Part shown: positions 33,001 through 36,000 of the stretch, one piece after another
Layout: the number at the start of each line of letters is the position of its first letter
Numbering within the stretch: position 1 is the stretch's first letter
Virus record (IMG/VR): IMGVR_UViG_2651869692_000003
Length of the DNA stretch: 45,459 bases
Direction: 5' to 3' (one strand)
DNA from: a virus
Taxonomy: Duplodnaviria; Heunggongvirae; Uroviricota; Caudoviricetes
Program-made: the position numbers

Positions 33001-36000
33001 CGTAAAGATGAACTGATTCAGGCACTGACGCTGCTGGATGTAAAACAGCAGGAGCTTCAGAAACAGACGGCACTCAACGATCTGAAGAAAAAAACAATTC
33101 AGCTGACCAGTCAACTGGCTGAAGAAGAGCGCGCTCAGCGTCAGCAACATGACCTGGATATCGCCACGGTGGGTATGGGTGATCAGCAGCGACAGCGATA
33201 TCAGGTACAACTGAGTCTTCGCCAGAAATACCAGCAACAGCTGGAGCAGTTGAGGCGGGATAGTGAGCAGAAAGGGACATATAACACGGATGACTACAGA
33301 AAGGCCGAGCAGGCGCTGACGGAGAGCCTGAACCGACAACTGAATGAGAATCGCCGTTACTGGCAACAGCTTGAAGTTGTGCAGGGTAACTGGAAAAACG
33401 GTGCCATGCGGGCGTTTCAGAATTTTACGGCAGATGCGGATAATGCGGCAGGAACTGCTGAACAAATGTTTACATCGGCATTCAGCAGTGCGAGCGACGG
33501 GCTGGCGACATTCTGTACCACTGGCAAACTCAATTTCAAATCCTTCACCTCTTCTCTGTTGTCTGATATGGCAAAAATTATGGCACAGATGGCTATGATG
33601 CAGGCGGTAAAGGGCGTCGGTTCTTTATTCGGCATCACGGCTAATGCTGATGGCGGTGTTTATCAGTCGGCTGATTTGAGTCGCTACAGTGGCACGGTGG
33701 TTAACCGTCCGACGTTTTTTGCTTTTGCAAAAGGCGCGGGTGTGATGGGGGAAGCTGGACCTGAAGCCATTCTGCCACTGCGTCGTGGTGCTGACGGTAA
33801 GCTGGGGGTTGTGGCGGATATTGGGGGTTCAGGTATGGCGATGTTTTCCCCGCAGTACAACATCGAGATCAATAACGATGGCACGAACGGGCAGATAGGT
33901 CCGGCTGCCCTGAAGGCGGTTTATGACCTCGGGAAAAAAGCGGCAGCGGACTTTATGCAACAGCAGGCCCGTGATGGTGGTCGGTTAAGTGGAGCATATC
34001 GGTAATGGAGACGTTTCACTGGAAAGTGCGCCCGGATATGAATGTGGTATCAGAGCCGAAAGTGGTGACAGTGAAGCTGGGCGATGGTTATGAACAGCGT
34101 CGTGCGGCGGGACTGAATAACCAGTTGTCGACTTACAGCGTGACGATACGTGTTCGTAAATGTGAACACCCATCTTTAAAAGCCTTTCTGGAACGGCACG
34201 GTGGCGTCCGCGCATTTCAGTGGACGCCACCTTATGACTGGAAGCCGATCAGGGTGGTTTGTCGTAAATGGTCGGCAAGCGTGGGGGCGCTGTGGGTAAC
34301 CATAACGGCAGATTTTGAACAGGTCGTGGCATAGGAGGCTCTGATGCAGGATATTCCACAGGAAACACATCATGAGACGACACGCCTCACTCAGTCAGCC
34401 CAGGTGGTGCTCTGGGAAATCGATCTGACAGAGGTCGGTGGTGAACGTTATTTTTTCTGTAATGAGCAGAACGAAAAAGGTGAGCCGGTTACCTGGCAGG
34501 GGCGGCAGTATCAGGCATACCCCATTCAGGGGACGGGATTTGAACTGAACGGCAAGGGCAGTGCTGCCCGTCCGACACTGACGGTTTCTAACCTGCACGG
34601 CATGGTCACGGGGATGGCGGAAGACCTGCAGAGTCTGGTCGGCGGAACGGTGGTCAGGCGTAAGGTTTACGCCCGTTTTCTGGATGCGGTGAACTTCGTC
34701 AACGGAAACAGCGACGCCGATCCGGAGCAGGAGGTGATCAGCCGCTGGCGCATCGAGCAGTGCAGCGAACTGAGCGCGGTGAGTGCCTCTTTTGTACTGT
34801 CCACGCCGACGGAAACGGACGGTGCTGTTTTTCCGGGGCGCATCATGCTGGCCAACACCTGCACCTGGACCTATCGCGGCGATGAGTGCGGTTATAACGG
34901 TCCGGCGGTCGCGGATGAATATGACCAGCCGACGTCCGATATCACGAAGGATAAATGCAGCAAATGCCTGAGTGGCTGTAAGTTTCGCAATAACGTCGGC
35001 AACTTTGGCGGCTTCCTTTCCATTAACAAACTTTCGCAGTAAATCCCATGACAGAGACAGAATCAGCGATTCTGGCGCACGCCCGGCGATGTGCGCCAGC
35101 GGAATCGTGCGGCTTCGTGGTGAGAACGCCGGAGGGAGAAAGATATTTTCCCTGCGTGAATATCTCCGGTGAGCCGGAGGCGTATTTCCGGATGGCTCCG
35201 GAGGACTGGCTGCAGGCAGAAATGCAGGGTGATATTGTGGCGCTGGTCCACAGTCACCCCGGTGGTCTGCCCTGGCTGAGTGATGCTGACCGGCGGCTGC
35301 AGGTGCAGAGTGATTTGCCGTGGTGGCTGTTCTGCCGGGGGGCGATTCATAAGTTCCGCTGTGTGCCGCATCTTACCGGGCGGCGCTTTGAGCACGGGGT
35401 GACGGACTGTTACACGCTGTTCCGGGACGCTTACCATCTGGCGGGGATTGAGATGCCGGATTTTCATCGCGGGGATGACTGGTGGCGTAACGGTCAGAAT
35501 CTCTATCTTGACAATATGGAGGCAACGGGTTTTTACCGTGTCGCACTGACAGAGGCGCAGCCGGGCGATGTGCTGCTGTGCTGTTTTGGTTCATCGGTGC
35601 CGAATCATGCCGCCATTTACTGCGGTGACGGCGAGCTGCTGCACCATATTCCTGAACAACTGAGCAAACGAGAGAGGTATACCGACAAATGGCAGCGACG
35701 CACACACTCCCTCTGGCGTCACCGGGCATGGCACGCATCTGCCTTTACGGGGATTTGCAACGATTTGGCCGCCGCATCGACCTTCGTGTGAAAACGGGGG
35801 CTGAAGCTATCCGCGCACTGGCCACACAGCTCCCGGCGTTTCGTCAGAAACTGAGCGACGGCTGGTATCAGGTACGGATTGCCGGGCGTGATGCAGGCGA
35901 AACCGAATTATCTGCCCGTCTTAATGAGCCGCTGGCAAATGGTGCCGTGATCCACATCGTGCCGCGTCTGGCGGGGGCTAAAAGTGGCGGTGTATTTCAG

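What the first reader, a model, noticed from the sequence alone, without database searches (positions are those of the whole stretch)
35048..35791. K reading frame runs 103 nt into I
The K ORF does not stop at the start of I but continues in its own frame to 35791. This may be a genuine long overlap or a lost stop codon.
Basis: seen in the sequence. Interest (0 to 1): 0.2.

Follow-up and report, generated by a model that had tools for sequence, protein, structure and literature searches.

The report
Normal lambda K/I gene overlap
The 103-base overlap between tail genes K and I is real, but it is the standard arrangement in phage lambda and its many relatives, so it is a conserved dual-coding stretch and not a lost stop codon.

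Summary
K runs 35048..35791 (247 aa, JAB plus NlpC/P60 peptidase domains). I runs 35689..36336 (215 aa, ubiquitin-like beta-grasp plus a C-terminal plug domain). They share 103 nt, and I is read in the -1 frame relative to K.

This is not an anomaly. Lambda NC_001416 annotates K 14276..14875 and I 14773..15444, which is the same 103 nt. All 84 close relatives examined have the same geometry, and so does a RefSeq E. coli prophage annotation. 4402 of 5426 complete E. coli genomes carry the module.

In prophages of Enterobacterales, Pasteurellaceae, Aeromonadaceae and Gilliamella, K still runs 55-67 nt into the I beta-grasp coding region. Both frames are under selection. The wobble positions of each gene are unusually conserved inside the overlap (p about 1e-6), and nucleotide diversity there is about half that of the rest of K. 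K's extra tail is a conserved motif predicted to form a helix.

A Shine-Dalgarno sequence precedes ATG 35689 and none precedes ATG 35728, which favours the 103-nt version.

Verdict: genuine, ancient, already known. Low interest.

Side note: the lambda reference lacks one G at 14266, and this truncates its annotated K to 199 aa.

The parts
34344..35042 (+). Gene L (minor tail protein L, 232 aa). It ends 5 nt before K.
   Evidence: ORF; Pfam PF05100, E=1.6e-99.
35048..35791 (+). Gene K, full-length 247-aa form (tail tip assembly protein K, annotated 'C40 family peptidase').
   Evidence: ORF; Pfam JAB plus NlpC/P60; 93-98% identical 247-aa homologues in 80 viral contigs; AF2 model with mean pLDDT 88.9; Foldseek hits to MepS/LytE NlpC/P60 domains and to the P. 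furiosus JAMM1 desampylase.
35057..35341 (+). K JAB/MPN metalloprotease domain (residues 4-98) with an intact JAMM motif: E19, H68-x-H70, S78, D81.
   Evidence: Pfam PF14464, E=3.4e-13. These residues are invariant across 17 homologues down to 34% identity.
35378..35719 (+). K NlpC/P60 (C40) domain, residues 111-224. Its last 10-11 codons already lie inside the overlap.
   Evidence: Pfam PF00877, E=1.3e-12; C121, H187 and H199 invariant; Foldseek.
35670..35677 (+). Shine-Dalgarno-like GAGAGAGG inside K codons K-R-E-R, 11 nt upstream of the I start at ATG 35689.
   Evidence: Anti-SD duplex energy is -9.3 kcal/mol, against -1.5 for the region before ATG 35728. The same pattern holds across the whole lambda-type clade.
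35689..35791 (+). The 103-nt K/I dual-coding overlap: K residues 214-247 plus stop, and I residues 1-34.
   Evidence: Nucleotide diversity is reduced here, 0.037 against 0.070 for the rest of K and 0.170 for I just downstream. Wobble positions of both frames are conserved.
35689..36336 (+). Gene I (tail tip assembly protein I, 215 aa).
   Evidence: ORF; Pfam PF06805, E=1.5e-24; E=1.6e-105 to lambda gpI chains of PDB entries 8iyk/8iyl/8k35/8xcg.
35728..35979 (+). I ubiquitin-like beta-grasp domain (residues 14-97). It begins at the second in-frame ATG (Met14), which is the alternative I start giving a 64-nt overlap.
   Evidence: Pfam match covers residues 14-97. I proteins of distant relatives begin at this position. 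No SD precedes this ATG in the window.
35735..35785 (+). K C-terminal tail helix (residues 230-246) carrying the conserved motif F-T-G-I-x-N-D-L. It is encoded entirely on top of the first beta-strand region of I.
   Evidence: AF2 predicts a helix at 230-246; mean pLDDT per 10-residue block is 92 for 221-230, 82 for 231-240 and 58 for 241-247. The motif is conserved down to 42-52% K identity. It is kept in Mannheimia phage K, where K and I no longer overlap.
35788..35791 (+). GTGA: an I-frame GTG (Val34) overlapping the K stop codon TGA. Some database records use this GTG as the I start, which truncates the protein.
   Evidence: Sequence. mEp460 NC_019716 and Lambda_ev087 annotate I from the equivalent GTG, giving a 4-nt overlap.
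36397..39879 (+). Gene J (central tail fibre / host specificity protein), downstream neighbour.
   Evidence: ORF; annotated as J in the homologous phages.

Best explanation
This is the ordinary K-I junction of a lambda-type tail module. Two separate proteins are made from one stretch of DNA read in two frames. K, a JAB plus NlpC/P60 double peptidase needed for tail-tip assembly, is translated to its TGA at 35789-35791. I, a ubiquitin-like beta-grasp domain joined to a C-terminal plug domain, starts independently inside K, most probably at ATG 35689 using the GAGAGAGG Shine-Dalgarno sequence embedded in K codons 208-210. The last 21 or so residues of K form a conserved C-terminal helix that is 'overprinted' on the codons for the first beta-strand of I. 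Both readings are under purifying selection, so the segment evolves slowly. Shown here: the coordinates, identity with the lambda arrangement, conservation across families of Gammaproteobacteria, constraint on both frames, and the SD pattern. Inferred, not shown: which ATG is actually used, that K and I are made as separate polypeptides in this phage, what the K tail does, and that K's JAB domain cleaves I after its G-G motif (the Iyer et al. 2006 prediction).
For: (1) Lambda NC_001416 has K 14276..14875 and I 14773..15444, the same 103 nt. Tritos and a PGAP RefSeq E. coli prophage also have 103 nt. 84 of 84 close relatives have a 247-aa K and a 103-nt overlap. The module is present in 4402 of 5426 complete E. 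coli genomes.
(2) In one-genome-per-species contigs, K's stop lies 55-67 nt inside the I beta-grasp coding region in Citrobacter, Edwardsiella, Budvicia, Proteus, Providencia, Xenorhabdus, Limnobaculum, Gilliamella, Gallibacterium, Haemophilus, Aggregatibacter, Pasteurella, Aeromonadaceae and Plesiomonas, down to about 42% K identity.
(3) Both frames are constrained. I third-codon positions have mean pairwise identity 0.57 inside the overlap against 0.31 after it (Mann-Whitney p=3.5e-6). K third positions at residues 227-247 score 0.60 against 0.37 for residues 1-213 (p=9e-7). Among 92 unique close sequences, diversity is 0.037 in the overlap against 0.070 and 0.170 in the flanks (p=5e-4).
(4) The K tail motif W..F-T/M-G/A-I-x-N-D-L/M is conserved and predicted to be a helix. 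It survives in the K frame alone in Mannheimia phage 3927AP1, where a terminator and a small ORF separate K from I.
(5) On the start site: an SD (-6.5 to -9.3 kcal/mol) precedes the upstream ATG throughout the lambda-type clade, and none (-1.5) precedes the Met14 position. That position is CTG in E. albertii (L114), Edwardsiella anguillarum, Providencia huashanensis and Xenorhabdus, so only the upstream ATG can serve there.
(6) Context from the literature: gpI residues 134/135-223 are in the virion and gpK is not (PMC10721106, PMC12617516). TAPI is described as ubiquitin-like and TAPK as JAB plus NlpC/P60 in PMC1779556.
Against: No protein-level data were available for the I N-terminus. In distant relatives I starts at the Met14-equivalent position, and the Pfam domain starts there too. 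The 13-residue N-terminal extension shows at most weak evidence of selection as a peptide: K wobble identity at residues 214-226 is 0.46 against 0.37, p=0.04, and that signal is driven largely by two single-codon Trp residues. The SD-to-ATG spacing of 11 nt is on the long side. The K tail is not universal. It is absent in HK97/N15/phi80/KS9-type K proteins and truncated or diverged in Actinobacillus minor (L146) and in Pasteurellaceae bacterium Pebbles2 (L145). An open K frame is expected by chance in 78% of recodings.
Confidence: 0.9

Rival explanations
1. The overlap is genuine but only 64 nt long. I starts at the second ATG (35728, Met14), the first residue of the beta-grasp domain, and the 13 upstream codons are not translated.
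For: The Pfam PF06805 match starts at residue 14. I proteins of Mannheimia phage, mEp010, HK225 and phi80 start at the equivalent position. In Budvicia, Pasteurellaceae, Aeromonadaceae and Gilliamella, stop codons lie upstream and only this start is possible. There is no clear selection on the 13-residue extension as a peptide.
Against: In the window and throughout the lambda-type clade, no SD precedes this ATG (-1.5 kcal/mol). This is because K's Trp-Arg is encoded UGG CGU rather than the UGG AGR that forms the SD in the other clade. A good SD precedes ATG 35689. In sister lineages the Met14 codon is CTG, while the upstream ATG is strictly kept.
Confidence: 0.2
2. K has lost its stop codon. 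It used to end near the start of I, and the last 34 codons are meaningless read-through in this particular prophage.
For: HK97/N15/phi80/KS9-type K proteins end within 1-8 nt of the start of I and have no tail. An open frame here is likely by chance.
Against: Lambda, all 84 close relatives and more than 40 further species have the stop at the homologous place. The stop position is maintained even when its sequence changes, for example TAA in Tritos. The tail motif is conserved at I's wobble positions. The tail is predicted to be a helix and is kept without any overlap in Mannheimia phage.
Confidence: 0.02
3. The overlap is only 4 nt (GTGA). I starts at GTG 35788, as annotated in mEp460 (NC_019716) and Lambda_ev087, and the genes are coupled by termination-reinitiation.
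For: Two database records annotate I this way. A GTGA stop/start junction is a classical coupling motif, and relatives of the KS9 and HK225 types do have overlaps of 1-4 nt.
Against: That start would delete 33 residues, including the first 20 residues of the beta-grasp domain (MARICLYGDLQRFG...). This segment is conserved across the whole family and matches Pfam positions 2 onward.
Confidence: 0.02
4. The overlap hosts a programmed -1 ribosomal frameshift that makes a K-I fusion protein, by analogy with lambda G/GT.
For: I lies in the -1 frame of K. A few database proteins combine K and I domains, such as P0016, P0031 and P0100. Iyer et al. mention a TAPI-JAB fusion in one E. coli prophage.
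Against: There is no X_XXY_YYZ slippery heptamer in the overlap. The only one in K, GGGTTTT at 35527, lies upstream and is not conserved in lambda, Tritos or mEp460. There is no stable RNA structure: z = +1.4 against shuffled sequences. The fusion proteins are clusters of 1-4 member sequences, consistent with sequencing errors or pseudogenes.
Confidence: 0.02

Closest known systems
Bacteriophage lambda genes K and I (NC_001416: K 14276..14875, I 14773..15444)
   Same: Same gene order L-K-I-J, same 103-nt out-of-frame overlap, same stop position for K and same two in-frame ATGs for I. K is 93% identical at the protein level and I is 81% identical.
   Different: The window's K is the intact 247-aa form. 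The lambda reference annotates only 199 aa because it lacks one G at about position 14266. The window's I is 215 aa against 223 aa and has a diverged Gly/Ala-rich linker.
K/I junctions of HK97/N15/phi80-type and Burkholderia KS9-type siphophage tail modules
   Same: Homologous JAB plus NlpC/P60 K protein followed directly by a homologous beta-grasp I protein.
   Different: The overlap is only 1-8 nt, a classical coupling junction. K lacks the C-terminal tail helix. Betaproteobacterial relatives are intermediate at 26 nt.
Lambda G/GT and other programmed-frameshift tail chaperone pairs
   Same: Two reading frames are used within one stretch of the same tail operon.
   Different: This site has no slippery site and no fusion product. 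The two proteins initiate independently.
JAMM/MPN peptidase with ubiquitin-like substrate pairs (P. furiosus JAMM1-SAMP2; TAPK-TAPI as predicted by Iyer, Burroughs and Aravind 2006)
   Same: K's JAB domain has the complete JAMM motif and structurally matches JAMM1. I has a beta-grasp domain ending in a conserved G-A-K-S-G-G.
   Different: Cleavage of I by K has not been demonstrated, either here or in the papers read. It is a prediction. The virion structures show only the C-terminal part of gpI.

Membership tests
Lambda gpK / TAPK (tail tip assembly protein K) | N-terminal prokaryotic JAB/MPN domain with JAMM motif E...HxH-x7-S-xx-D | tested here: met
   PF14464, E=3.4e-13, residues 4-98. E19, H68, H70, S78 and D81 are invariant in 17 homologues. 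Foldseek match to P. furiosus JAMM1.
Lambda gpK / TAPK (tail tip assembly protein K) | C-terminal NlpC/P60 (C40) papain-like domain with catalytic Cys and His | tested here: met
   PF00877, E=1.3e-12, residues 111-224. C121, H187 and H199 invariant. Foldseek matches to MepS, LytE and others.
Lambda gpK / TAPK (tail tip assembly protein K) | Encoded between L and I in a lambda-type tail module | tested here: met
   Order M (PF05939), L (PF05100), K, I (PF06805), J. Same order in lambda.
Lambda gpK / TAPK (tail tip assembly protein K) | Required for tail assembly but absent from the virion | not testable with these tools
   Known for lambda only, from the literature (PMC10721106, PMC12617516).
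Lambda gpI / TAPI (PF06805) | N-terminal ThiS/MoaD-like beta-grasp domain ending in conserved G-x-K-S-G-G, then a Gly-rich hydrophobic linker and a C-terminal plug domain | tested here: met
   PF06805, E=1.5e-24. Full-length alignment with lambda gpI of PDB 8iyk, E=1.6e-105. G96 of the AGAKSGG stretch is invariant and the stretch is retained, with substitutions, in 7 homologues.
Canonical lambda K/I overlap | K stop lies 103 nt downstream of the I ATG, with I in the -1 frame of K | tested here: met
   Window 35689..35791 against lambda 14773..14875. 84 of 84 relatives agree. PGAP annotation agrees.
Termination-reinitiation coupled gene pair (ATGA/GTGA-type junction) | Downstream start codon within a few nt of the upstream stop codon | tested here: not met
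   The conserved I domain begins 64 nt, and the SD-supported ATG 103 nt, upstream of K's stop. The GTG at the stop would truncate the domain.
Programmed -1 frameshift site | Conserved X_XXY_YYZ slippery heptamer plus a downstream stimulatory structure | tested here: not met
   No heptamer in 35689..35791. RNA fold z = +1.4.

The most novel reading that the evidence does not exclude
K's C-terminal helix (residues about 230-246) arose by overprinting on the 5' end of I in an ancestor of the gammaproteobacterial lambda-type tails. It then acquired a function of its own, for example docking the JAB/NlpC peptidase onto its ubiquitin-like substrate I or onto the J-I-L assembly intermediate. That would explain why it was retained when K and I were later separated in Mannheimia phages. 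The switch of the I start site (a UGGAGR SD with a 55-67 nt overlap, against a GAGAGG SD with a 97-106 nt overlap) would then be a second, lineage-specific retuning of I expression from inside K.
Probability: 0.25. Interest if true: 0.3.

Novelty: already known. Interest (0 to 1): 0.08.

Why it matters
It matters little for discovery. The K/I overlap is part of the textbook lambda gene map and is present in most E. coli genomes.

There are three practical points:
- Gene callers that penalise long overlaps mis-annotate I from the GTG at K's stop, as in mEp460 and Lambda_ev087. That call removes the first beta-strand of the ubiquitin-like domain.
- The reference lambda record truncates K to 199 aa and removes the catalytic Glu of its JAB domain, because of a missing G at 14266. 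Anyone modelling or expressing 'gpK' from the reference would use an incomplete protein.
- Anyone recoding or refactoring lambda-type tail genes must treat 35689..35791 as dual-coding sequence.

Tried and rejected
- I looked for an RNA structure that might couple K and I translation by folding 35655..35800. It is less stable than shuffled sequences (z = +1.4), so I rejected this.
- I looked for a -1 frameshift signal. There is no slippery heptamer in the overlap. The single GGGTTTT at 35527 is not conserved. Rejected.
- I tested whether the open K frame is itself improbable. It is not: 78% of synonymous recodings keep it open. That argument was dropped.
- I tested whether the 13-residue N-terminal extension of I is selected as a peptide. 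The signal is marginal (p = 0.03-0.04), appears in both clades, and is driven by Trp codons. Inconclusive.
- I searched the PDB by sequence for a solved K structure. Only a distant JAB-domain protein, 2kks, was found.
- A literature search for gpK combined with NlpC found nothing in the held library.
- The first attempt at a diversity alignment across L to I timed out. I repeated it on K plus 190 nt.
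Full report
**1. Observation**

The ORF table and the raw sequence confirm the coordinates. One ORF runs from ATG 35048 to TGA 35789-35791 (247 aa). A second runs from ATG 35689 to 36336 (215 aa). 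They share 35689..35791, which is 103 nt.

The second ORF is read in the -1 frame of the first. K codon position 3 therefore coincides with I position 1, and K position 2 coincides with I position 3.

Pfam identifies both proteins:
- K has a prokaryotic JAB domain at residues 4-98 and an NlpC/P60 domain at residues 111-224.
- I matches Lambda_tail_I (PF06805) at residues 14-97.
- M and L lie upstream and the 1160-aa J lies downstream.

An open K frame is not statistically remarkable. When I residues 1-35 are recoded synonymously with local codon usage, the K frame remains open for all 34 codons in 78% of trials. Whether the overlap means anything has to be judged from relatives.

**2. Comparison with lambda and close relatives**

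NC_001416 annotates K at 14276..14875 and I at 14773..15444. That overlap is also 103 nt.

Other close relatives agree:
- Phage Tritos has K 13817..14560 and I 14458..15105, again 103 nt.
- A PGAP-annotated E. coli chromosome has the same 103 nt.
- In 83 fetched loci plus the window, 84 of 84 (lambda excepted, because of a frameshift discussed in section 7) have a 247-aa K and a first I-frame ATG 103 nt before the K stop.
- The K-I segment is found in 4402 of 5426 complete E. coli genomes, with a median of three copies per genome.

**3. Distant relatives**

I used a profile of K to fetch one-genome-per-species loci. I then located K's stop and the first residue of the I beta-grasp domain with HMMs.

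The distance from the domain start to the K stop falls into distinct classes:

| Group | Overlap |
|---|---|
| Escherichia, Citrobacter, Edwardsiella, Budvicia, Proteus, Providencia, Xenorhabdus, Limnobaculum, Gilliamella, Gallibacterium, Haemophilus, Aggregatibacter, Pasteurella, Aeromonadaceae, Plesiomonas (K identity down to about 42%) | 55-67 nt |
| Betaproteobacterial relatives | 26 nt |
| HK225 (N15-type), phi80, Burkholderia KS9 | 1-8 nt |
| Mannheimia phage 3927AP1, Actinobacillus minor prophage | none; a terminator plus small ORFs is inserted between K and I |

The long overlap is therefore an old, stable character of the gammaproteobacterial lambda-type lineage. It is not a lesion of this prophage.

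**4. Both frames are selected**

The test rests on the frame geometry. A synonymous change in I (its position 3) hits K position 2, which always changes the K amino acid. A synonymous change in K hits I position 1.

Results across 27 sequences that are less than 85% identical to each other in I:
- I third positions have mean pairwise identity 0.57 in the 21 overlapped codons against 0.31 afterwards (Mann-Whitney p = 3.5e-6). The difference holds when only amino-acid-conserved columns are compared: 0.65 against 0.37, p = 0.006.
- K third positions at residues 227-247 score 0.60 against 0.37 for residues 1-213 (p = 9e-7).

Among 92 unique close relatives, nucleotide diversity is 0.037 in the overlap. 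It is 0.070 in the rest of K and 0.170 in the next 190 nt of I (p = 5e-4).

At the protein level, the K tail carries a conserved motif, W-x4-F-T/M-G/A-I-x-N-D-L/M. AlphaFold2 predicts a C-terminal helix at residues 230-246. The mean pLDDT is 88.9 overall and 82 for residues 231-240.

The Mannheimia case is the most telling. The ancestral overlap segment appears to have been duplicated; the supporting nucleotide match is short, 15 of 16 nt with one indel. The K copy keeps the K-frame motif (LDFDGILNDIAVNN) while its I-frame reading is full of stops. The I copy keeps MITVKFYGHLKTFG. The tail is therefore maintained for K's own sake.

It is not universal, however. It is absent from HK97/N15-type K proteins, truncated in Actinobacillus minor, and diverged in one other Pasteurellaceae prophage.

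**5. Where does I start?**

The window offers ATG 35689 (103 nt of overlap) and ATG 35728 (Met14, 64 nt of overlap).

Distant I proteins begin at the Met14-equivalent position. In Budvicia, Pasteurellaceae, Aeromonadaceae and Gilliamella, stop codons upstream leave no other choice. Those lineages carry a UGGAG(A/G) Shine-Dalgarno sequence 7-8 nt upstream, formed by K's Trp-Arg codons UGG AGR (duplex energy -6.4 to -10.6 kcal/mol).

In the lambda-type clade, the window included, the same Trp-Arg is written UGG CGU. That abolishes the SD (-1.5 kcal/mol), and the Met14 codon is often CTG or TTG. In its place, an ATG 13 codons upstream is strictly conserved and is preceded by GAGAGG or GAGGAG from K's K-R-E-R codons (-6.5 to -9.3 kcal/mol). 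In E. albertii (L114), locus L120, Edwardsiella anguillarum, two Providencia species and Xenorhabdus, this upstream ATG, or an in-frame ATG between it and the domain start, is the only start codon available in the open I frame.

I therefore favour 35689, at about 0.75. I see no clear selection on the 13-residue extension as a peptide.

A third annotation exists in databases: GTG at the K stop, giving a 4-nt overlap (mEp460 NC_019716 and Lambda_ev087). It would delete 33 residues, including the first 20 residues of the beta-grasp domain, and it looks like a gene-caller artefact.

**6. Mechanism**

There is no slippery heptamer in the overlap. There is no unusually stable RNA structure; the fold z-score is +1.4. 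Neither programmed frameshifting nor structure-mediated coupling is supported.

The K-I fusion proteins in the databases are clusters of one to four member sequences. They are most simply explained as frameshift errors.

The most likely picture has three parts:
- I initiates independently at its own SD inside K.
- K is read through to 35791.
- The shared DNA keeps the peptidase and its presumed ubiquitin-like partner tightly linked.

Functional context comes from the literature:
- gpK is required for tail assembly but is not found in virions.
- Only gpI residues 134/135-223 are seen in the tail tip (PMC10721106, PMC12617516).
- Iyer, Burroughs and Aravind (PMC1779556) predicted that TAPK's JAB domain cleaves TAPI after the C-terminal glycine of its ubiquitin-like domain.

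K's JAMM motif and NlpC/P60 catalytic residues are intact here. The model matches the P. furiosus JAMM1 desampylase and MepS-type NlpC/P60 enzymes. The proposed cleavage itself remains untested.

**7. Side finding: the lambda reference**

In NC_001416 the first 46 codons of the long K ORF (MTQTESAILAHARRCAPAESCGF...) are in a different frame from the annotated 199-aa K.

The alignment shows a single missing G, GGAGGC-TATTTCC against GGAGGCGTATTTCC. All 76 other loci that carry this motif have the G. They include at least 13 contigs that are otherwise identical to lambda over 801 nt. Lambda_ev087 is annotated with a 744-nt K.

Independently, whole-genome sequencing of the lambda-gt10 transgene in MutaMouse lists '14266 C>CG' (PMC6760142 Table 5).

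The 199-aa 'gpK' of the reference therefore lacks the catalytic Glu and the first strands of its JAB domain. This is most likely a reference error or a strain-specific lesion. The window has the intact form.

**8. Verdict**

The 'genuine overlap' reading is right and the 'lost stop' reading is wrong. The feature is the canonical, already annotated lambda K/I overlap and is of low interest.

The modest additions from this work are:
- the demonstration that both frames are constrained;
- the two alternative internal start solutions for I;
- the predicted K tail helix;
- the annotation problems noted above.

Noticed in passing
L001 (lambda NC_001416) locus 1134-1277, about record position 14266. 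The window equivalent is 35048-35194, which is intact.: The lambda reference lacks one G (GGAGGC-TATTTCC) that is present in all 76 other loci carrying the motif, including at least 13 contigs otherwise identical to lambda. As a result lambda K is annotated as 199 aa starting at Met49 and loses the N-terminal third of its JAB domain. The MutaMouse lambda-gt10 sequencing lists the same change, 14266 C>CG (PMC6760142).
   Followed up: yes
L094-L105, L108, L112, L113, L115, L116, L137, L144, L152 (genome contigs): Short, low-coverage contigs that are 99.1-100% identical to lambda (most differ only by the 14266 G) sit in 'representative' genome assemblies of unrelated organisms, including Neobacillus, Pseudoxanthomonas, Shewanella, Bradyrhizobium, Paenibacillus, Desulfosporosinus, Kitasatospora and Colwellia. 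This is almost certainly lambda control-DNA contamination.
   Followed up: partly
L003 (mEp460 NC_019716) 1389-1937; L171 (Lambda_ev087) 1541-2113. Window equivalent is GTG 35788.: Some database records start gene I at the GTG that overlaps K's stop codon, giving a 4-nt overlap. This removes 33 residues, including the first beta-strand of the ubiquitin-like domain. Other records (lambda, Tritos, PGAP E. coli) use the 103-nt start.
   Followed up: yes
Window 35711-35727 compared with L122, L131, L134-L150 (about 20 nt before the I domain start): K's conserved Trp-Arg is encoded UGG AGR in Pasteurellaceae, Budvicia and Aeromonadaceae prophages, which creates the SD for I at the domain start. It is encoded UGG CGN in the lambda-type clade, where a different SD and an ATG 13 codons upstream are used. 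A synonymous codon choice in K thus switches the start site of I.
   Followed up: yes
L084 2230-2497 (Mannheimia phage 3927AP1); L146 3224-3598 (Actinobacillus minor): A moron-like insert lies between K and I: a rho-independent terminator followed by one or two small ORFs that look hydrophobic. The former overlap segment appears to have been duplicated (short match, 15 of 16 nt). Each copy now retains only one reading frame.
   Followed up: partly
Proteins P0006, P0016, P0028, P0031, P0037, P0042, P0063, P0082, P0100, P0106, P0116: Database proteins that fuse L-K or K-I domains, each a cluster of 1 to 11 member sequences (the K-I fusions 1-4). These are probably frameshift errors or pseudogenes at the tight L/K junction and in the K/I overlap.
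   Followed up: no
Window 35990-36130 (I residues about 102-147): The Gly/Ala-rich hydrophobic linker of I differs sharply from that of lambda: 215 aa against 223 aa, with several indels. The flanking beta-grasp and C-terminal plug domains are nearly identical to lambda's. Nucleotide diversity among relatives rises steeply after about 35900, which suggests mosaic exchange within I.
   Followed up: no
Window 35527-35533: The only X_XXY_YYZ heptamer in the K frame (G GGT TTT). It is not conserved in lambda, Tritos or mEp460, and the -1 frame is closed downstream, so it is taken as chance.
   Followed up: partly
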